Shown here piece by piece: positions 38,675 through 53,782 of a stretch of DNA of 64,000 nucleotides (position 1 is the first letter of the stretch; the number at the start of each line of letters is the position of its first letter). A model generated the notes under the pieces. It saw only the letters and a list, made by a program, of their open reading frames with translations. It did no database searches and was not told the origin of the DNA. Source of the DNA: an uncultured virus (IMG/VR IMGVR_UViG_3300025000_000080). Taxonomy: Duplodnaviria; Heunggongvirae; Uroviricota; Caudoviricetes. Where the stretch lies: positions 1 through 64,000 of the IMG/VR virus record IMGVR_UViG_3300025000_000080; one strand, written 5' to 3'. The translations under genes and the position numbers were made by a program.

Positions 38675-38889
38675 GTGGTAAGCATCGCCCCCATGCCTAC
38701 CATCAGTGAATAACTCAGAACCGACCCCCGCAAGACATTGATAGCCAGGTACAGTCCGGCAATCTTGGCATACCGCTTGATCGCCCGACTGTGACGGTGC
38801 CGGTGGATCTCGAATGCAACATCACTCGCTGTCGTCGGATCCCCGGGGTCCTGATACGCGCCCACCACGCTTGCGAGTTGATTTCTCAC
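38614..38889 (-). CDS. Small membrane protein (possible lysis accessory)
   Basis: Hydrophobic segments; lies between holin-like gene and TerL. Confidence 0.4.
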   Translation of the reverse strand: MRNQLASVVGAYQDPGDPTTASDVAFEIHRHRHSRAIKRYAKIAGLYLAINVLRGSVLSYSLMVGMGAMLTTCTIADAPAQKAEWKHVGKR

Positions 38890-39133
38890 GACGGATCTCC
38901 TCTTTCACCTCCTGAAGCAGTCTCCTTTCCTCCATGCCCATCTGCAGGGAGTGCTCAAGGGATCTGTTCAAGAGTTCCATTGTCTTTGAGATATGCGGGG
39001 CAAACCGTGCCCAGACTGCCCGCACCCCCAGGATGATGGAGATCAGAATCACGATGTAGGGGATGTAGTTTGGACTCGAGTTTGCAAAGGTCTTGATGAC
39101 CTCACCCAAGCCCACCGTGGTTCCCGGTGTCAT
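38822..39133 (-). CDS. Holin-like membrane protein
   Basis: One TM helix (YIPYIVILISIILGV), coiled charged tail; AGGAG RBS. Confidence 0.5.
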   Translation of the reverse strand: MTPGTTVGLGEVIKTFANSSPNYIPYIVILISIILGVRAVWARFAPHISKTMELLNRSLEHSLQMGMEERRLLQEVKEEIRREKSTRKRGGRVSGPRGSDDSE

Positions 39134-39297
39134 GTCCCGTCTCCTGTCTCAACAGTATCCCAAATGCGGCGTGTTGACAAAAATCAACACGCGTCGTGAG
39201 TGCCTAACTCTATTATCCCCAGCGTGTGGGCATGCGCAAATCTGATGCCATCGGGCAGCGTTCAGGGGTCAAATGGATGAGTTTGGTAGAAGAAAAG

Positions 39298-39334
39298 AAA
39301 AAGGGGCGACTCTGCGATAGAATCGCCCCTTTTT
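39298..39334. terminator. Bidirectional intrinsic terminator after tmRNA
   Basis: AAAAAGGGGCGA...TCGCCCCTTTTT. Confidence 0.75.
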
Positions 39335-39355
39335 GTCAACTGGGCTTGCCAGAAA

Positions 39356-39711
39356 TGGTGGAGGCGCCGATGTACCGCCCATCGGGTCCGAAAGAACTCG
39401 ACTCAAGGTGTCTACGTGCGTAGTGCTCTGATCAGTTTCGCCCTAGATCTGCAGGCACACAGTCTGCCGGGCTAGCAGGTGATATTCCCTCGTTTAGTCC
39501 TGCGCTCCACGAGGGTTTTGACTGCTGGCATTATGCCCACCTGGCCCCGCAGTCTGAACCAGGCGAACAGCCCACTAAGCGGCCTGACGGTCGTAGTCGG
39601 CGTAGTAGTCGGTGTTGTTTGCGACTATGGTTTTGAGCCTGTTTAACGAGGCGACCCACCTCTGCACGCTGCCCTGATCTACCGTTCCCCCGTCGAATCT
39701 ATTTCGCCCCC
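39356..39711 (-). ncRNA. ssrA: tmRNA, tag ANNTDYYADYDRQAA*
   Basis: 5' GGGGGCGAAATAGATTCGACGGGG; 3' CGCCTCCACCA; G3-U70 pair; ATAGTC-GCA resume context; tag at 39575-39622 ends AA-stop. Confidence 0.95.
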
Positions 39712-39728
39712 GAAACTGTAAAATGGAA

Positions 39729-39800
39729 TGCCCCCAGTAGGATTTGAACCTACGACCTGCCGGTTAAAAGCCGGCTGCTCTACCACTGAGCTATGGAAGC
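39729..39800 (-). tRNA. tRNA-Lys(UUU), CCA not encoded
   Basis: Full cloverleaf; anticodon arm GCCGG-CTTTTAA-CCGGC; GGTTCAAATCC. Confidence 0.9.
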
Positions 39801-39801
39801 G

Positions 39802-39993
39802 TTAGACCTCTTCGACCTTGATGGAGTATTTCCACCGCTCCATCTTGTCGTCAGACTCGGTTGTGATCTCGAGATGGTCAAGACCTGCCTCTTTGCCTCT
39901 CACATCCGTGACATGGAGTGCCTTACCAGACTCGGGACTGGTCAACAGAATGGACTTGAGGAAGTCGCTTTCTTTATCCACGTCGATCTCCAT
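39802..39993 (-). CDS. Small hypothetical protein between tRNAs
   Basis: 63-aa ORF exactly filling the tRNA-Glu/tRNA-Lys spacer; no clear RBS. Confidence 0.45.
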   Translation of the reverse strand: MEIDVDKESDFLKSILLTSPESGKALHVTDVRGKEAGLDHLEITTESDDKMERWKYSIKVEEV

Positions 39994-39998
39994 GTGAA

Positions 39999-40069
39999 TG
40001 ATCCCACAGGGAATTGAACCCTGGCTTCCGCCGTGAAAGAGCGGTGTCTTGCCACTAGACTATGGGACC
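39999..40069 (-). tRNA. tRNA-Glu(UUC), CCA not encoded
   Basis: GGTCCCA/TGGGATC acceptor; CCGCT-CTTTCAC-GGCGG anticodon arm; GGTTCAATTCC. Confidence 0.9.
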
Positions 40070-40157
40070 AAAGGTAGCGCCGTCGTGTTCAACGGCACTG
40101 AACTTCCGGACTCTTACCGGCTGCATGTGCAGGACTCGTGTAGCCAATCGAACAGGA

Positions 40158-40676
40158 TCACATCGAGTAACTGACCTGACATCCGCGCCGACAGTACAGA
40201 CGCGGCTTGCGGTGCAACGAGGGGATCTCGATGAAGACATCGCCCTCGGAATTCGTGTTGAAACAGATCCGGTGAGTGCGGGCGAATTGGTACGCGGCAG
40301 TCTCAGCGCTCACACCGCTGGTCAACACGGTTCCGGTCATTCGCTTCTTGCTGCCGGACTTGTGCTTGAACGTGGCCAGGGTCACTGAGTCAACGTCCGA
40401 CTCGTCATCAACATCTTCCTCAACCGACAACTCCGGACGACTCACGAGAGACAGTGCCGACACTCGAGGCCAGTAAAGCTTCGGGCGCGCCTTGCCCGGT
40501 ATCTCGCTGGTATGTTGACCATCCGCCAATATCGGCTTGACGACCTTATGGACAGCGACCTTGGCGGGCAGGACTGCTAGAGCTTCACCGGTCTTTACCT
40601 TCACATGACCGGCAGCCTGACTACTCCACTGGACCATGTCACCAAGTTGATACTGCATTTCAGCCTCCATGTTCAC
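40158..40676 (-). CDS. Hypothetical protein
   Basis: ORF with GGAGG before internal ATG; YWPRVSAL motif. Confidence 0.55.
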   Translation of the reverse strand: MNMEAEMQYQLGDMVQWSSQAAGHVKVKTGEALAVLPAKVAVHKVVKPILADGQHTSEIPGKARPKLYWPRVSALSLVSRPELSVEEDVDDESDVDSVTLATFKHKSGSKKRMTGTVLTSGVSAETAAYQFARTHRICFNTNSEGDVFIEIPSLHRKPRLYCRRGCQVSYSM

Positions 40677-40682
40677 GTTAAC

Positions 40683-40755
40683 GACCGCCGCTGAGAATCA
40701 AACCCAGGCTTCCGGTTGCGCGTCCCGGCGTGCGATCCAGCCACGCTGCAGCGGT
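40683..40755 (-). ncRNA. Degenerate tRNA-like element
   Basis: ACCGCTG/CGGCGGT acceptor and CTGGG-TTTGATT-CTCAG T arm; non-canonical anticodon loop. Confidence 0.5.
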
Positions 40756-41042
40756 GAAAGATAAGGCGGCGCTGTTCAACAAGCAGCGCCATTAAGCCCG
40801 TAGTATGGGCGCCTCATGAAAGACTCCCGGTTAACGTGCCGGGTCACGCCCTACACAGATAAGGCAGTTTCAGACACCTTACATCGGCGCTCGGATCGAA
40901 CGAGCAGCTTCCCCTGTCCGTCCCCTTCGGGCTGCGCTAATACTTCAGGTTCGGGATTCCTGAAGGCATGCCCGTAAATGCCTCACGCACATGCCGAAGA
41001 CTCCAAGTATTTAACGACGTGGGAGTCTTGGATGACCGTCTC

Positions 41043-41126
41043 TGGTGGAATCGGCCAGGATCGAACTGGCACTTGCTACACCTTGGCGCGCCGTGTAGTT
41101 GCTCTATCCGATTGAGCTACGATCCC
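41043..41126 (-). ncRNA. tRNA-like RNA with Ala identity and enlarged anticodon arm
   Basis: Acceptor GGGATCG/CGATTCC + ACCA, normal D and T arms; anticodon arm CTACAC-11nt-GTGTAG. Confidence 0.8.
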
Positions 41127-41330
41127 ATAACGCGGGCCTTTTCCAGCCCGCCAGGCTAACATTCAACACAAGGAGGCCAGTCCATAGTGCCTATCTGCGG
41201 TAATTTGCAGACATGCGGCCGCACGCAGCCTTAAGCCTAGTGCATGTCTCCGTTGGTCAAGCCAACGGCACTGACGAAGGGCGGAAAGCCGAGCCAGTGA
41301 GGATTCAAATGGAGTCGGCGCCATTTTGGA

Positions 41331-41864
41331 CTAGCGGTCGTGAACTGGCGTCTTTCTCGTTTTTAAAGCATGGCACCAGACGCATAATACTTGCAGATTT
41401 TCCAGTGAATTATGTTCACGGTTATTATCGATATGATCAACGTCTAACATTGCAGAATACTTGTCGTATCCACATTGACAACATTTCTGCCCGTATTCCC
41501 GGAGTGCACGTTCCCTGTAATAACTCTTTCCGTTTTTGTATTGTCCTGGCCGTATTTCCTCAATCCCGCCAATTCTCTGAGCCAAATCCTTGCATGCTCT
41601 GGTACAAAAGTAAAAACCATGTCTTGAATTCTTTTTCTTGCCTGTTAGTTTGACGAATTGCTTTCCACATTGTGAGCATGTGAGAGTCTCGCGGCGTTGC
41701 TTCGTCTTAGCATGGCACTTTTTGCTACAAAACTTTGCACCATTAAGTATGTGCCTTGGCAAATAAAACGTTGCTCCACATTGAGCACACACCTTAGCAT
41801 ACAGTTTCCTGAAGTAGCCATCATAGCTATCAGATGTGATGTACTCTGACTCTTCTTGCGCCAC
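41331..41864 (-). CDS. HNH endonuclease with multiple Zn-finger repeats
   Basis: CxxC..FCSxxC repeats; LDVDHIDNNREHNSLENLQVLCVWCH; visibly AT-richer than flanks. Confidence 0.9.
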   Translation of the reverse strand: MAQEESEYITSDSYDGYFRKLYAKVCAQCGATFYLPRHILNGAKFCSKKCHAKTKQRRETLTCSQCGKQFVKLTGKKKNSRHGFYFCTRACKDLAQRIGGIEEIRPGQYKNGKSYYRERALREYGQKCCQCGYDKYSAMLDVDHIDNNREHNSLENLQVLCVWCHALKTRKTPVHDR

Positions 41865-41879
41865 TGAAGTACTTTTCTG

Positions 41880-41986
41880 CTTGAACCGCTATCCTCTGGT
41901 GCCAATCTCTGTCAGGCTATGTGCGCTCCACATACAAACGTCTTGTATACTGCAGGCCAGACGTTCCCCCACTGAACTACAGCCCC
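41880..41986 (-). pseudogene. Interrupted tRNA-Ala(UGC)-like gene, 5' portion
   Basis: GGGGCTGTAGTTCAGTGGGGGAACGTCTGGCC-TGC-A, 50-nt insert, CCAGAGGATAGCGGTTCAAG, then breaks off. Confidence 0.65.
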
Positions 41987-42197
41987 GTATGCTCGTCTTT
42001 CCCGGCTGCCTGGCTCTGTCTCGTCGAGCCTTCACGCCCGCATGGGCTCAGAGAGTGCGCCACCACTCAATCTGAGGTCGGTTGCTTTGCCCCGGAGGTT
42101 ACAGGGCGCCGGTTACCATACCGCCTCCCGATGACTCATGCACAGAGAGTCGGGAGCGCTACTCTGCCGGGAGTTTCACCCGGGTGCCGAAAGAATA

Positions 42198-42311
42198 AAA
42201 GACTGGGCTGACGGTACTGGTTCCACTCAGGACAGCGCTGCTTCCACTCCGGATGTACAACTCAGCAGGAACGCCACTCAACTCAGTCACTGGATCAACC
42301 GCCCAGTCTTT
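42198..42311 (-). ncRNA. Rod-shaped ncRNA candidate
   Basis: 11-bp terminal stem AAAGACTGGGC/GCCCAGTCTTT starting at the predicted TSS. Confidence 0.55.
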
Positions 42312-42316
42312 ACCAG

Positions 42317-42360
42317 ACTGTACCATGACCCTAGATATACAGTCAACAACTATTTTAATG
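42317..42360 (-). promoter_or_regulatory. Promoter of ncRNA island: ATTAAAATA-N4-TTGACT-N18-(TGG)TACAGT
   Basis: Direct reading; shared upstream box. Confidence 0.7.
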
Positions 42361-42367
42361 ATTCGTC

Positions 42368-42841
42368 TTAAAGGTTCGGTCGACCGAACCCGAGGCAGAG
42401 CGCTCTCTTGCGGAGACGACGCGCGACATGCGAAGATTTACCACCGCTGGGAGGCGCGGTGTTGCCCTCCACCGTGACGACACAGCATGAGTTGGACATC
42501 TCGACGATACCCACATGATTGGGCTTGCCATTCCCCCGGACATCCATGAAGGCGATGTATCCGGGTTCCGGGTCGTCGACCAACCACCCGCGCTGGCGAA
42601 ACGCCTCGAGGCCGATGGCGACGGAAGCAAAGCCGTTATATCCAGGGGCTTGAAGTTCAGGAAGGGGTGTGCCCGCCTCGTCAAAACACCACGAGACGAA
42701 CATGCCGCACCAGGGCTGGCCATCCCAGTTCTGCCCAGCAGTCTCCCCGTACCATTCTCCGTACTTGGTACGATTTGAGCCGTCCGGAGCCTCCTGCATT
42801 CCGATCTCAGATATAGCTATTTCCAAAGGCGTGTTGCTCAT
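42368..42841 (-). CDS. CHAP-domain endolysin
   Basis: PWCGMFVSWC, HVGIVE, VEGNT; GGAG RBS before ATG 42841. Confidence 0.9.
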   Translation of the reverse strand: MSNTPLEIAISEIGMQEAPDGSNRTKYGEWYGETAGQNWDGQPWCGMFVSWCFDEAGTPLPELQAPGYNGFASVAIGLEAFRQRGWLVDDPEPGYIAFMDVRGNGKPNHVGIVEMSNSCCVVTVEGNTAPPSGGKSSHVARRLRKRALCLGFGRPNL

Positions 42842-42902
42842 ACGATCTCCATCATTGAAGGGTATGAGCAAAGGATAGCCTGTAAGGGCGGGAATCACAA
42901 AA

Positions 42903-43249: not shown

Positions 43250-44161
43250 TCAATAATTCCTGATCAGGACTTCGTCGACGGCTCCACGCCCGGTGCCCTT
43301 GCAGTTGACGGAACGGATGGCGCGGACGTGGGAGATCTCAAAGCCCTTGTACAACTCGAGCACGGCAGGGTGAGCGCTGTTGCATAGGAGGAAGTTGATA
43401 GAGCGCTTCGCCAGGTCTTGGCATGCTTCAGCCAGACTTGCCTGGTGATCCATTCCGAATCCATCAGCCGTGTACTGGTCGAACGAGGCGGTCACAGAGA
43501 CAGGAACGTAGGGTGGGTCGAAGAAGATGAAGTCACCGGCTCGGGCCAGAGATGTACTGGAAAGGAAGTCGGCCTCGAGTATTTCAGCACCCTGGAGCGA
43601 CGATGACGCGGCCAGGAGGACATCTCCACGCACCACATCAGCCGTCACCTTGGATGGATCGAAGCTGACGTTGAACTCTCCCTTCTGGTTCTCCCGGAAC
43701 AGCCCGTTGAAGCATATCCGGTTCAGGAAGACGAACAGGGCCGCAAGCCTTATCGGGCTGGGTGGCGTTGAGTCGGTGAACAGCCCAAACACACCTGACC
43801 GTCTCTCGCGTACTCCACGATTGAACTCTGTACGAGCTCGCAGATAGCCCTCCAGCGTTCGCTCCTGCATGAGTCGCTCGAGTTCATCGATCACATCTTG
43901 TGGTCGGCTACGGACCATTCGATAGCAGGTGACCAGCCTATGGTTCAGGTCGGACAGATAAGCAGCTCCTTTGATCCGTCTCTCCCGGACCATGGCGAAG
44001 TAGACAGCACCTCCACCGATGAATGGCTCATGGTAGGCGTTGAACCGCTTCGGGACGAGACTCAGGATCGGCTCGAGTAGTTGGTCCTTACCACCCGCCC
44101 ACCGAAGGAACGGCCGCGGCTCAAGCCCATTTTTGCCACTAACCGTAATCGCTGCTACCAT
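43250..44161 (-). CDS. dam: Dam-family DNA adenine methyltransferase
   Basis: PFLRWAGGK, EPFIGGGAV, FNGLFRENQKGEFN, FDPPY, EVLIRNY. Confidence 0.92.
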   Translation of the reverse strand: MVAAITVSGKNGLEPRPFLRWAGGKDQLLEPILSLVPKRFNAYHEPFIGGGAVYFAMVRERRIKGAAYLSDLNHRLVTCYRMVRSRPQDVIDELERLMQERTLEGYLRARTEFNRGVRERRSGVFGLFTDSTPPSPIRLAALFVFLNRICFNGLFRENQKGEFNVSFDPSKVTADVVRGDVLLAASSSLQGAEILEADFLSSTSLARAGDFIFFDPPYVPVSVTASFDQYTADGFGMDHQASLAEACQDLAKRSINFLLCNSAHPAVLELYKGFEISHVRAIRSVNCKGTGRGAVDEVLIRNY

Positions 44162-44185
44162 GCCACCAAATCCTTGGAGGAGACT

Positions 44186-44488
44186 ATGCGTCCCAGTGAA
44201 GTGAAGATTGAACTCGTGTCCGTTACCTGCCCTTGTGGCTTGTCCCTGGCCGAATGTGCCGAGCACCGCCCACTGTTTTTCGATCTGCTGAAGGAGCGCG
44301 TTCCTGAAGCACAGAAGAACCTGATCGGGCCGGCGCTGTTCAGTTTGTTCGTCGATCCGGTCAAAGCAGCCGGATACGTGCTTCAGGCGTTGAGCACGCT
44401 GGCTGTGTTCGGCGTCGTCTGGTATCTGATCGCGAACGATTATCGGCTGGGTGTGTCGGTAAGTCGCCGGGAGCGAAGTTCATCGTGA
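44186..44488 (+). CDS. Small membrane protein on the opposite strand
   Basis: GGAGGAG RBS; TM-like segment; overlaps 3' end of convergent MTase ORF. Confidence 0.5.
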   Translation: MRPSEVKIELVSVTCPCGLSLAECAEHRPLFFDLLKERVPEAQKNLIGPALFSLFVDPVKAAGYVLQALSTLAVFGVVWYLIANDYRLGVSVSRRERSSS

Positions 44489-53380: not shown

Positions 53381-53737
53381 TCCAGCAAGGCACTGCTAGG
53401 AGTATGGACGAGGCGCAACCGGTCGTCAAGGACTTTTAAAATACTCTTTTACTTTTAAGCAGAGAATTATCTACCAACTGGGTGGAGATATTCGAGATAG
53501 CGAAATCTAATGGACAGCCAGATACCACTATGGCATGATCAAACGCAGTAGCCATTTCCTGCAGACGCTGCCGCTCATGCCGCTCTAGCACCAACAATAC
53601 TCGCCCGCACCCGTAGCATTTCCCGTAGCAGTGACACCTGATTCGGGACAGTAATCAGTAGCAATACGCTAACGCGACTCACTTGTAAGCCTGCGAAAGA
53701 TCGAAACAAGTGCTGTAATAGTCCAGTGTGCTTTCCC

Positions 53738-53782
53738 GATTCGTAATCAGCAGGTCGCCGGTTCGAATCCGGCCTTCGGCTT
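53738..53782 (+). other. attP core: 3' half of tRNA-Thr(CGU)
   Basis: GATTCGTAATCAGCAGGTCGCCGGTTCGAATCCGGCCTTCGGCT with no 5' half; next to integrase; CCGTAGCA repeats on both sides. Confidence 0.85.

What the first reader, a model, noticed from the sequence alone, without database searches (positions are those of the whole stretch)
39356..42346. 3-kb ncRNA island mixing tmRNA, tRNAs, tRNA mimics and unknown structured RNAs
Seen: one promoter (42317-42346) and one terminator (39298-39334) bracket these elements, in order: a 114-nt rod, a ~170-nt multibranch fold, a split tRNA-Ala-like gene with HNH, a second multibranch fold, an Ala-identity tRNA-like RNA, a T-arm-bearing mimic, a degenerate tRNA, tRNA-Glu, tRNA-Lys and tmRNA. 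Almost all non-coding bases form hairpins. Established: phage tRNA clusters can neighbour large structured RNAs (GOLLD, ROOL), and tRNA-Lys(UUU)/Glu(UUC) are targets of anticodon nucleases (PrrC, RloC, PARIS AriB). Inference: this may be a polycistronic translation-rescue or decoy RNA system with undescribed RNA classes. Best candidate for a new system in the window.
Basis: partly seen in the sequence, partly recalled or inferred. Interest (0 to 1): 0.8.

Follow-up and report, generated by a model that had tools for sequence, protein, structure and literature searches.

The report
Phage tRNA-tmRNA cluster with homing endonuclease
This stretch of an uncultured groundwater phage is an ordinary kind of phage tRNA/tmRNA gene cluster that a selfish HNH nuclease gene has invaded, and the supposed tRNA mimics are most likely broken or duplicated leftovers of tRNA-Ala and tRNA-Glu genes rather than new RNA classes.

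Summary
Confirmed on the minus strand: tmRNA (39356-39711, Rfam 132 bits), tRNA-Lys(UUU), tRNA-Glu(UUC), and a tRNA-like gene (41046-41126, Rfam tRNA 46 bits) with G3:U70, A73 and an encoded CCA, but 15 nt where a 7-nt anticodon loop belongs. A promoter-like site and a strong terminator bracket the region.

Not confirmed:
- The island is not all non-coding. 35% is two protein genes: an HNH endonuclease and a 172-aa PHROG protein.
- The non-coding segments fold no better than shuffles (z -0.15 to -1.9).
- No Rfam family other than tRNA and tmRNA matches.

Nine of the 10 closest HNH relatives lie within 65 nt of a tRNA-Ala gene inside phage tRNA arrays. The HNH gene has 43% GC against 58% for the phage.

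The "mimics" resolve as follows:
- a 5' tRNA-Ala(UGC) fragment with a 50-nt insertion;
- an Ala-type tRNA with a wrecked anticodon loop;
- a weaker T-arm piece like that tRNA's 3' part;
- a decayed duplicate of leader plus tRNA-Glu.

About 850 nt stay unassigned. No homologous island could be fetched, so covariation is untested.

Verdict: a new member of a known kind, resembling the T4 tRNA cluster with segB. Interest is low to moderate.

The parts
42317..42346 (-). Sigma-70-like promoter candidate (TTGACT, 18-nt spacer, TG-TACAGT), 22 nt after the endolysin stop.
   Evidence: 9 of 12 consensus matches, with TG before the -10 hexamer. Promoter-like sites are not enriched in the region (5 found against 2.9 +/- 1.6 in shuffles).
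42198..42311 (-). 114-nt element closed by an 11-bp perfect stem and followed by a U-rich tail. It contains a 21-nt tandem duplication. Unassigned; it could be a terminator or attenuator for the endolysin transcript, or a small RNA.
   Evidence: inverted repeat I11, direct repeat D4. (z -1.56 against shuffles). No Rfam hit. No paralogue in the 137-kb genome.
41987..42197 (-).
   Evidence: MFE -81.7 against -79.1 +/- 4.7 in shuffles (z -0.56). No Rfam hit. No PHROG hit at E < 0.1 for the ORFs tested in this part.
41877..41986 (-). tRNA-Ala(UGC)-derived 5' pseudogene. Positions 1-38 lie at 41986-41950, a 50-nt insertion at 41949-41900, then the 3' strand of the anticodon stem, the variable region and the first half of the T arm at 41899-41877. 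It is truncated in the T-loop. A second short D-arm-like fragment overlaps the HNH start (about 41885-41845).
   Evidence: nhmmer tRNA profile: 41985-41951, positions 2-37, E 0.18, 4th best in the window. BLAST to tRNA-Ala of L080 and L078, E 0.004. Alignment A3 with 9 tRNA-Ala genes. Second fragment against the first: 2 of 500 shuffles reach the score. The Rfam tRNA model gave no hit here.
41331..41864 (-). Free-standing HNH homing endonuclease gene (177 aa), compositionally foreign.
   Evidence: phrog_1271, E 6e-21; Pfam HNH 19.8 bits, below its cut-off of 21.4. GC 43.1% against 57.7% for the window. Relatives sit in phage tRNA arrays, 9 of 10 within 65 nt of a tRNA-Ala gene.
41127..41330 (-). 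It ends in a hairpin 5 nt before the next tRNA-like gene and shares a 12-nt word with the tRNA-Glu leader.
   Evidence: z -1.25. (direct repeat D10). No Rfam hit. No paralogue elsewhere in the genome.
41043..41126 (-). Ala-type tRNA-like gene with G3:U70, A73 and an encoded CCA. The acceptor, D and T arms are intact, but 15 nt (including GGCGCGCC) stand where a 7-nt anticodon loop belongs. It is probably a non-decoding derivative of the tRNA-Ala gene that normally follows this HNH family.
   Evidence: Rfam tRNA 46.1 bits, E 7.7e-8. ARAGORN reports it only in intron mode, as Leu(caa) with a 6-nt intron. Acceptor end matches the tRNA-Ala genes next to HNH relatives. Ancestry is not proven: its D-arm 23-mer is common in viral tRNA-Arg(UCU), 72 of 80 loci.
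40883..40910 (-). It resembles the variable region, T arm and start of the 3' acceptor strand of the tRNA-like gene at 41046-41126.
   Evidence: Local alignment score 20 against 14.1 +/- 2.1 in shuffles; 10 of 500 shuffles reach it. Controls against tRNA-Glu and tRNA-Lys are not significant. Direct repeat D9. The tRNA profile did not find it.
40677..40810 (-). Decayed duplicate of the unit leader hairpin + tRNA-Glu + trailer. The tRNA-like part is 40683-40755 (ARAGORN 'Arg(gcg)', non-canonical loops).
   Evidence: Direct repeats D2, D3 and D6. Alignment A4. Local score 25 against 15.1 +/- 2.1; 0 of 500 shuffles reach it. Controls against tRNA-Lys and the Ala-type tRNA-like gene are not significant. 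ARAGORN -ps90. Rfam mascRNA-like match at 21 bits, E 0.62.
40158..40676 (-). Protein gene of 172 aa, function unknown.
   Evidence: phrog_11941, E 7.4e-11 over residues 7-76. A 40% identical relative lies in another tmRNA- and tRNA-rich phage (L004/G002).
39998..40070 (-). tRNA-Glu(UUC).
   Evidence: ARAGORN. Rfam 67.2 bits.
39802..39993 (-). 63-aa acidic ORF that exactly fills the spacer between tRNA-Glu and tRNA-Lys. Possible small protein gene, unverified.
   Evidence: No Pfam or PHROG hit.
39729..39800 (-). tRNA-Lys(UUU).
   Evidence: ARAGORN. Rfam 74.7 bits.
39356..39711 (-). tmRNA in one piece, with G3:U70 and an encoded CCA. Tag reading frame: ANNTDYYADYDRQAA*.
   Evidence: Rfam RF00023, 132.3 bits, model positions 1-374. 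Tag read from the ORF listing and the sequence. ARAGORN did not report it.
39298..39334 (-). Intrinsic terminator: 16-pair stem, 5-nt loop, U tract.
   Evidence: inverted repeat I2.

Best explanation
The region is a phage tRNA/tmRNA gene cluster lying between the endolysin gene and the holin-like and large-terminase genes. It is probably transcribed from one promoter to one terminator as a precursor and then cut up by host RNases; both steps are inferred.

Three products are intact translation RNAs: tRNA-Glu(UUC), tRNA-Lys(UUU) and a tmRNA. The tmRNA must rely on host SmpB and AlaRS.

The cluster has been colonised by a free-standing HNH homing endonuclease gene. This HNH family lives in phage tRNA arrays, and its closer members lie next to tRNA-Ala genes. 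By analogy with T4 SegB, the enzyme is inferred to cut tRNA gene DNA in phages that lack it. Repair would then copy the gene and its flanks across.

The 'tRNA mimics' are debris and duplicates of that kind of turnover:
- a truncated tRNA-Ala(UGC) 5' part with a 50-nt insertion after the anticodon loop;
- an Ala-type tRNA whose anticodon loop is replaced by 15 nt;
- a weaker T-arm fragment like that gene's 3' part;
- a decayed copy of leader plus tRNA-Glu.

The remaining roughly 850 nt of spacers (42316-41987, 41330-41127 and parts of 41045-40756) are unassigned. They may hold processing hairpins, and nothing marks them as a new RNA class.
For: Intact genes.

The HNH family is tRNA-array resident.
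- I examined 10 non-self relatives with at least 36% identity over at least 119 residues: L075, L078, L079, L080, L085, L087, L088, L089, L090, L091.
- 10 of 10 have at least one tRNA in the fetched locus.
- 9 of 10 have a tRNA-Ala gene within 65 nt of the match (8 with anticodon UGC, 1 with CGC). The exception, L079, sits between tRNA-Gly and tRNA-Thr.
- In L075, L078, L080, L087 and L089 the ORF abuts or overlaps a tRNA.
- Of 4 more distant cultured-phage relatives checked, 3 are annotated next to tRNA genes.

The HNH gene has 43.1% GC against 57.7% for the window.

L080 also carries a tRNA-Ala 5' fragment ending just after the anticodon loop directly upstream of its HNH gene, and a duplicated T-arm piece after the next tRNA. 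I read both by eye from the sequence. Partial tRNA-profile hits outside called tRNAs occur in all four arrays scanned.

Window relics:
- 5' Ala fragment.
- Leader + tRNA-Glu duplicate: 0 of 500 shuffles reach the score, and both controls are flat.
- T-arm fragment against the Ala-type tRNA-like gene: 10 of 500 shuffles.

The folds are not exceptional and only tRNA and tmRNA match Rfam.

The island is not conserved upstream of TerL in the one relative where that DNA is available. L071 has 54% TerL identity over the part of the gene it holds, and its 4.5 kb upstream contain no tRNA or tmRNA.

[quoted passage not shown] SegB recognises the T-loop motif of tRNA genes. T5 endonuclease ORFs also lie in its tRNA cluster. 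From section 10 of PMC13096335: segB homologues co-localise with tRNAs.
Against: - No HNH-less allele, cleavage site or homing event is shown. Contigs of 4 DNA runs from one study all carry the same form.
- The Ala-type tRNA-like gene keeps flawless acceptor, D and T arms, G3:U70, A73 and CCA. That is more order than expected of an old pseudogene, so it may be maintained for a function.
- The ancestry of that gene is not proven. Its D-arm 23-mer is typical of viral tRNA-Arg(UCU).
- The 5' Ala fragment has only marginal statistics on its own (E 0.18; E 0.004), and the Rfam tRNA model does not report it.
- About 850 nt remain unexplained, and weak fold z-scores do not exclude structured RNA. The tRNA-like gene itself has z -1.5.
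- The 10 HNH loci are not independent if the gene and its flanks travel together.
- Transcription as one unit is inferred from consensus motifs only.
Confidence: 0.7

Rival explanations
1. The tRNA-like gene at 41046-41126 is a functional, non-decoding tRNA-like RNA. AlaRS would charge it through G3:U70 and A73. It would serve as a decoy or sponge (for a tRNA-targeting defence nuclease, EF-Tu or SmpB), as an alanine donor, or as a form of tRNA-Ala gene that the resident HNH enzyme cannot cut.
For: - Rfam tRNA 46.1 bits, with perfect acceptor, D and T arms, G3:U70, A73 and an encoded CCA.
- Only the anticodon loop is aberrant.
- Both Ala-type copies flanking the HNH gene are altered at the anticodon loop.
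- It sits in the same putative operon as a tmRNA, which also depends on AlaRS.
Against: - No second example was found. The tRNA-Ala genes next to all 9 Ala-associated HNH relatives have normal 7-nt loops.
- No expression or charging data exist.
- A single recent insertion in a tRNA gene would look the same.
- The anticodon nucleases named in the passages I read from PMC10264068 act on other tRNAs, not on tRNA-Ala.
Confidence: 0.12
2. The unassigned segments (the rod at 42311-42198, then 42197-41987 and 41330-41127) encode new stable structured RNAs co-processed with the tRNAs. They would be comparable to T4 species I and II RNAs, or to large phage RNAs such as GOLLD and ROOL.
For: - They lie inside a putative tRNA operon.
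- An 11-bp perfect stem closes the 114-nt element.
- Hairpins directly precede each tRNA or tRNA-like gene.
- No protein family matches the nine small ORFs tested across the island, four of which lie in these segments.
- T4 has unexplained stable RNAs in its tRNA cluster (passage read in PMC2330249).
Against: - Fold energies are indistinguishable from shuffles: z -1.56, -0.56 and -1.25.
- No Rfam family matches at E <= 10 apart from chance-level miRNA and sRNA matches.
- No paralogues exist in the genome.
- No similarity to the 11 other phage tRNA and HNH loci compared.
- The region is absent upstream of TerL in the one related phage where that DNA is available.
Confidence: 0.1
3. The HNH gene sits in a self-splicing group I intron (or another intron) that interrupts a functional tRNA-Ala(UGC) gene, so a working tRNA-Ala is made after splicing.
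For: - A tRNA-Ala 5' part lies upstream of the HNH ORF.
- After the ORF a 14-nt stretch could be read as the second half of a T arm plus an acceptor strand pairing 6 of 7 with the 5' end. This is my hand reading of the sequence.
- From my own knowledge, group I introns with HNH genes occur in phages, and group I introns occur in bacterial tRNA anticodon loops.
Against: - No group I or other intron family matches at E <= 10.
- Only 17 nt lie between the tRNA part and the ORF start, and none lie after the stop, so there is no room for a ribozyme core.
- The supposed 3' piece encodes the conserved C-terminus of the protein (alignment A2), so the resemblance is probably accidental.
- ARAGORN in intron mode finds no split tRNA-Ala.
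- Relatives are free-standing between intact tRNAs.
- The 5' part carries a second, 50-nt insertion.
Confidence: 0.03

Closest known systems
Phage T4 tRNA gene cluster with the free-standing homing endonuclease segB and the species I and II RNAs (PMC2330249, passages read; PMC13096335, abstract and section 10 read).
   Same: - A compact one-strand cluster of tRNA genes, possibly read from one promoter to one terminator.
- A homing endonuclease ORF lies among the tRNAs.
- Extra RNA-coding or unexplained sequence lies in the cluster.
- The endonuclease is tied to tRNA gene DNA.
- Duplication of tRNA segments occurs.
   Different: - The enzyme here is HNH, not GIY-YIG.
- Its closer relatives prefer one isotype (tRNA-Ala), whereas segB homologues showed no isotype preference (PMC13096335, section 10).
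- This cluster also holds a tmRNA and only two intact tRNAs.
- Neither cleavage nor homing was tested here.
[quoted passage not shown]
   Same: Site-specific endonuclease ORFs located inside a phage tRNA gene cluster.
   Different: No sequence comparison with the T5 proteins was made here. That they belong to the HNH family is my recollection and comes from no call.
tmRNA plus tRNA arrays of large and huge phages (PMC7162821, passages read).
   Same: - A phage-encoded tmRNA lies next to tRNA genes.
- No SmpB was found in either phage checked.
- The same HNH family lies in the tRNA array of LR756511.1.
   Different: This phage is at least 137 kb and 87% complete, and keeps only two intact tRNAs plus relics. 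Its terminase is unrelated to that of G002.
Phage tRNAs as replacements for host tRNAs cut by anticodon nucleases (PMC10264068, abstract and passages read).
   Same: The two tRNAs kept are Lys(UUU) and Glu(UUC). The paper names Lys(UUU) as a PrrC target. The phage itself prefers AAG (31.5 per 1000 codons) over AAA (9.4 per 1000), so supplementation of the AAA codon is not an obvious reason to keep tRNA-Lys(UUU).
   Different: The host is unknown, no nuclease is known, and host codon usage is unavailable. The anticodon loop of the tRNA-Lys reads CUUUUAA. That this is the ordinary form is my recollection. Nothing here tests resistance to cleavage.

Membership tests
tmRNA (Rfam RF00023) | Covariance-model score at or above the gathering score, over the full length. 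| tested here: met
   132.3 bits against 47, model positions 1-374.
tmRNA (Rfam RF00023) | tRNA-Ala-like domain with G3:U70 and a 3' CCA, and a tag reading frame with an alanine resume codon and a stop. | tested here: met
   Read from the alignment and the sequence. The 5' end GGGGGCG pairs with CGCCUCC, followed by ACCA. The tag is GCA... = ANNTDYYADYDRQAA, then a stop.
tmRNA (Rfam RF00023) | Detection by ARAGORN's tmRNA search. | tested here: not met
   Not reported, nor with -m. G002's tmRNA was reported by the same program.
tmRNA (Rfam RF00023) | SmpB partner available. | tested here: inconclusive
   No PF01668 match in the 137-kb, 87%-complete record. Host SmpB is presumed, but the host is unknown.
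tRNA (Rfam RF00005): gene at 41046-41126 | Cloverleaf scoring at or above the gathering score. | tested here: met
   46.1 bits against 29, E 7.7e-8. It was missed by the filters of the 64-kb gathering run.
tRNA (Rfam RF00005): gene at 41046-41126 | Seven-nucleotide anticodon loop with U33 and a readable anticodon. | tested here: not met
   15 nt stand where the model has 7. ARAGORN accepts it only as Leu(caa) with a 6-nt 'intron'.
tRNA-Ala identity set | G3:U70 pair and A73 discriminator. That these define alanine identity is my own knowledge. | tested here: met
   Present in the gene at 41046-41126, read. The 5' fragment at 41986 has no verified 3' acceptor strand, so it cannot be judged.
Free-standing homing endonuclease of phage tRNA clusters (SegB-like in behaviour) | Nuclease family signature. 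| tested here: met
   phrog_1271 'HNH endonuclease', E 6e-21, and 20 further HNH PHROGs among the 25 families shown. Pfam HNH 19.8 bits is below its cut-off of 21.4. The motif is conserved in alignment A2.
Free-standing homing endonuclease of phage tRNA clusters (SegB-like in behaviour) | Relatives located in or next to tRNA genes in other phages. | tested here: met
   - 10 of 10 close relatives have a tRNA in the locus.
- 9 of 10 lie within 65 nt of a tRNA-Ala gene.
- 3 of 4 distant cultured relatives lie next to tRNAs.
- Dropped before the count: L081 and L082 (26-29% identity; one tRNA-Met and none).
- Not examined: the 45 loci L094-L138.
Free-standing homing endonuclease of phage tRNA clusters (SegB-like in behaviour) | [quoted passage not shown] | tested here: inconclusive
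   No close relative with this locus was retrievable. The 4 DNA runs laid show one form only. Foreign composition (43% against 58% GC) is indirect support.
Free-standing homing endonuclease of phage tRNA clusters (SegB-like in behaviour) | Site-specific cleavage of the endonuclease-less allele, and gene conversion. | not testable with these tools
   Needs purified protein and substrate DNA, or mixed infections.
Group I intron (Rfam RF00028 and subtype models) | Ribozyme core detectable around the ORF, with both exons reconstituting the tRNA. | tested here: not met
   No intron family matches at E <= 10 in 38800-42900 or in 41860-42000. No split tRNA in ARAGORN intron mode.
GOLLD, ROOL and other large phage-associated RNAs | Match to the Rfam model. 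| tested here: not met
   No such match at E <= 10.

The most novel reading that the evidence does not exclude
The promoter-to-terminator unit makes, besides tmRNA and two tRNAs, a stable anticodon-less tRNA-like RNA (41046-41126) that AlaRS charges with alanine. Together with RNAs from the unassigned spacers, it would act in ribosome rescue or as a sponge or decoy during infection. Its anticodon-loop replacement would be selected rather than accidental, for instance because it also makes the gene immune to the neighbouring HNH enzyme.
Probability: 0.1. Interest if true: 0.6.

Novelty: new member of a known kind. Interest (0 to 1): 0.3.

Why it matters
The finding shows how a cluster that looks like a set of exotic tRNA mimics can arise. 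A homing endonuclease living in a phage tRNA array can leave truncated, duplicated and loop-damaged tRNA genes behind it. This is a caution for anyone mining phage genomes for new structured RNAs.

Two modest points are worth keeping:
- An HNH subfamily is tied to tRNA-Ala genes in 9 of its 10 closest members. I found no paper on this: one full-text search returned a single unrelated paper. It gives a testable target for a new tRNA-gene-specific endonuclease.
- One tRNA-like gene keeps every alanine-acceptor feature but has lost its anticodon loop. It would be an easy object for a charging assay.

Tried and rejected
HOMOLOGOUS ISLANDS FOR COVARIATION
- TerL, the 172-aa protein and the tmRNA tag pattern found only the same phage in IMG/VR at 99-100% identity.
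- The TerL alignment A1 found truncated contigs L064, L070 and L072, plus L071. The 4.5 kb upstream of TerL in L071 holds other genes and no tRNA or tmRNA.
- Nothing was found in genome contigs.
- TerL relatives at 48-63% identity exist in the protein collection (P0002-P0005, one on a 136,986-bp contig).

OTHER SEARCHES THAT LED NOWHERE
- 58 endolysin-related loci: one tRNA in all, and no island.
- blastn of the island against 50,697 phage records: only generic tRNA-Lys matches.
- Sequencing runs: no RNA holder is listed. Contigs of 4 DNA runs from one study, possibly the source of this DNA, carry the identical form with no joint skipping the HNH gene.
- Earlier findings of this scan: none for this genome.

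HOST FROM THE tmRNA
- Likeness is only about 70-75% over the first ~100 nt, and the tags differ (for example ADDYNYAVAA).
- I make no host claim.

ANCESTRY OF THE tRNA-LIKE GENE
- Its D-arm 23-mer is common in viral tRNA-Arg(UCU), so it is uninformative.

IDEAS CONSIDERED AND DROPPED
- HNH inserted in the T-loop of one tRNA-Ala gene, with the 3' end of the tRNA after the stop codon. Those bases encode the conserved C-terminus of the protein.
- An archaeal-type bulge-helix-bulge intron for the 50-nt insertion. No convincing helix appears by hand, and the tmRNA and CHAP endolysin indicate a bacterial host.
- I planned an in-silico excision of the insertions followed by a tRNA search, but did not run it.

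Full report
WHAT THE WINDOW IS

The window is part of an IMG/VR virus record (73 kb, estimated 54% complete). The same phage occurs at 99.99% identity over the 10 kb compared, on a 137.6-kb contig estimated 87% complete. DNA runs that hold the stretch are labelled groundwater metagenome. The large terminase has no close cultured relative: 22-33% identity at best.

The finding lies on the minus strand. It sits between a CHAP endolysin gene (42368-42898) and a holin-like gene (38822-39133) followed by the large terminase gene.

CHECKING THE OBSERVATION

Three genes are solid:
- tmRNA 39356-39711: Rfam 132.3 bits, full length. ARAGORN did not report it.
- tRNA-Lys(UUU) 39729-39800.
- tRNA-Glu(UUC) 39998-40070.

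A fourth, at 41046-41126, passes the Rfam tRNA gathering score (46.1 bits against 29) in the focused search. It has 15 nt where the 7-nt anticodon loop should be. Its acceptor stem has G3:U70, the discriminator is A, and CCA is encoded.

Promoter-like sites are not enriched in the region, however. The 114-nt 'rod' is real as an 11-bp perfect inverted repeat enclosing 92 nt.

- The island is not purely non-coding. It holds an HNH endonuclease gene (41331-41864; phrog_1271, E 6e-21) and a 172-aa gene (40158-40676; phrog_11941, E 7e-11). Together they take 1053 of 2991 nt. A 63-aa ORF also fills the tRNA-Glu/tRNA-Lys spacer exactly.
- The non-coding segments do not fold better than chance. For the nine segments folded, the minimum free energy lies within z = -0.15 to -1.93 of 100 dinucleotide shuffles.

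No Rfam family other than tRNA and tmRNA gives a credible match at E <= 10. In particular there is no group I intron, GOLLD or ROOL.

THE HNH GENE IS THE KEY

Its relatives were collected from GenBank phages and IMG/VR. Ten non-self relatives share at least 36% identity over at least 119 residues.
- All ten lie in loci with tRNA genes.
- Nine lie within 65 nt of a tRNA-Ala gene: eight with anticodon UGC and one with CGC.
- The tenth lies between tRNA-Gly and tRNA-Thr.
- In several the ORF abuts or overlaps the neighbouring tRNA.

I dropped two weaker partial matches from this count: L081 has one tRNA-Met in the locus and L082 has no tRNA. I did not examine the 45 loci L094-L138.

Of four more distant cultured-phage relatives, one sits in a tRNA cluster, two sit just after tRNA-Thr, and one has no annotated tRNA nearby.

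In the window the gene has 43.1% GC against 57.7% for the phage.

This is the behaviour of a free-standing homing endonuclease of tRNA clusters.
- The experimentally studied example is T4 SegB. It lies in the T4 tRNA cluster, recognises the T-loop motif of tRNA genes, and is transcribed within one ~1.75-kb precursor together with eight tRNAs and the species I and II RNAs.
- T5 endonuclease ORFs also lie in its tRNA cluster. Both points are from passages read in PMC2330249.
- SegB homologues co-localise with tRNAs, without isotype preference (PMC13096335, section 10), and drive segmental amplification of tRNA loci (PMC13096335, abstract).

THE 'MIMICS' RESOLVED

(a) The sequence from 41986 aligns with tRNA-Ala(UGC) genes from position 1 through the anticodon loop (alignment A3).
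- After a 50-nt insertion it resumes with the 3' strand of the anticodon stem, the variable region and the first half of the T arm. It stops 17 nt before the HNH start.
- A sequence profile built from 76 phage tRNAs ranks 41985-41951 as the fourth-best hit in the whole 64-kb window, at profile positions 2-37 with E 0.18.
- BLAST links it to tRNA-Ala genes of L080 and L078, E 0.004.
- A second short D-arm-like piece overlaps the HNH start: 2 of 500 shuffles reach the score.
- L080 shows the same arrangement. A tRNA-Ala 5' fragment ends just after the anticodon loop directly upstream of its degraded HNH gene, and a duplicated T-arm piece follows the next tRNA. I read this by eye; the profile did not pick up the 5' fragment.

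(b) The tRNA-like gene at 41046-41126 stands on the side where five of the relatives have a tRNA-Ala(UGC) gene. It shares their acceptor end. Its ancestry cannot be proven from so short a sequence, because its D-arm 23-mer is common in viral tRNA-Arg(UCU).

(c) The 'T-arm-bearing mimic' (40910-40883) resembles the variable region, T arm and start of the acceptor strand of that gene. 10 of 500 shuffles reach the score, and controls against tRNA-Glu and tRNA-Lys are flat.

(d) The 'degenerate tRNA' (40683-40755) with its leader and trailer is a decayed duplicate of the unit leader hairpin + tRNA-Glu + trailer.
- Evidence: direct repeats D2, D3 and D6, alignment A4, and a local score of 25 against 15.1 +/- 2.1 that 0 of 500 shuffles reach.
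- Controls against tRNA-Lys and the Ala-type gene are flat.

Partial tRNA-profile hits outside called tRNAs are also found in all four HNH-bearing arrays scanned.

WHAT REMAINS UNEXPLAINED

About 850 nt are unassigned: 42316-41987, 41330-41127 and parts of 41045-40756.
- No family matches them.
- The nine small ORFs tested across the island, four of them in these stretches, have no protein-family hit.
- They have no paralogue in the 137-kb genome.
- They have no similarity to the other tRNA and HNH loci.
- Their fold energies are unexceptional.

Hairpins sit just upstream of tRNA-Glu, of its decayed copy and of the Ala-type gene. They may be processing or 3'-end structures. Weak z-scores do not exclude function, since true tRNAs score weakly too.

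The decisive covariation test could not be run. The only contig with DNA upstream of a related terminase (L071, 54% identity over the part it holds) has other genes there and no tRNA or tmRNA. Closer relatives are known only as proteins.

HOW IT MOST LIKELY WORKS

Shown: the gene content and the family associations.

Inferred:
- One transcript runs from the promoter-like site to the terminator, as in T4.
- Host RNases release tRNA-Glu, tRNA-Lys and tmRNA.
- The tmRNA works with host SmpB, since none is found in the phage.
- The HNH enzyme cuts tRNA(-Ala) gene DNA in phages that lack it, and spreads with its flanks.
- Repeated cutting, repair and duplication left the fragments.

Why Lys(UUU) and Glu(UUC) are the two tRNAs kept is open. 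The phage prefers AAG to AAA (31.5 against 9.4 per 1000 codons) and GAG to GAA (34.7 against 21.4). Supply of rare codons is therefore not an obvious reason. Replacement of tRNAs cut by host anticodon nucleases, as proposed in general in PMC10264068, is possible but untested without a host.

RIVALS

- A functional, alanine-charged, non-decoding tRNA-like RNA: 0.12. Its intact arms and identity set speak for it. The lack of any second example and the normal loops in all relatives speak against it.
- New structured RNAs in the spacers: 0.10.
- A self-splicing intron carrying the HNH gene: 0.03. There is no ribozyme core or space for one, and the relatives are free-standing.

VERDICT

This is a phage tRNA/tmRNA cluster invaded by a tRNA-array homing endonuclease, with tRNA-derived debris. 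It is a new member of a known kind.

The association of this HNH subfamily with tRNA-Ala genes is a small new observation. One full-text search returned only a single unrelated paper. The anticodon-less Ala-type tRNA is a cheap experimental target.

Noticed in passing
window 53712-53781 (+): A tRNA-Thr(CGU)-like sequence that ARAGORN calls at its default threshold. It scores only 22 bits on Rfam tRNA (gathering 29) and has mismatches in the acceptor and anticodon stems. It is another sub-threshold tRNA relic, on the opposite strand and 11 kb from the cluster.
   Followed up: partly
window 38822-39133 and 42368-42898 (-): The CHAP endolysin gene and the holin-like gene are separated by the whole 3-kb RNA cluster. 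The cluster therefore appears to sit inside the lysis cassette, directly upstream of the large terminase. Related terminase contigs (L070, L071) lack both the lysis genes and the cluster at this place.
   Followed up: partly
window 39356-39711 (-); loci L139-L218: A 24-nt pattern from the tmRNA 5' end occurs mainly in Desulfobulbales genomes, some from groundwater. Similarity is only about 70-75% over the first ~100 nt and the host tags (for example ADDYNYAVAA) differ from the phage tag ANNTDYYADYDRQAA. This is a weak host lead only.
   Followed up: partly
L078 3053-3067; L075 4532-4534; L080 3002-3004: In several relatives the HNH reading frame ends inside or exactly at the 5' end of the next tRNA gene. 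In L078 the stop codon lies in the D-loop. Maturation of the tRNA would therefore cut the mRNA at or before its stop codon. That could hold down expression of the endonuclease, as was proposed for T4 segB.
   Followed up: no
L076 (G002:C1:93000-112000): An unrelated 198-kb phage carries a tmRNA (tag ADQNRKANDNIVRQPLRAAA), 38 tRNA genes within 7 kb, and a 40% identical relative of the N-terminal part of the window's 172-aa protein about 8 kb upstream of its tmRNA. This hints that phrog_11941 proteins accompany phage tRNA/tmRNA regions.
   Followed up: no
window 43250-44266 (-): A D12-class N6-adenine DNA methyltransferase gene (Pfam E 4.9e-46) lies just upstream of the endolysin.
   Followed up: no
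window 42210-42251: A tandem 21-nt duplication (76% identical) lies inside the 114-nt hairpin element.
   Followed up: no
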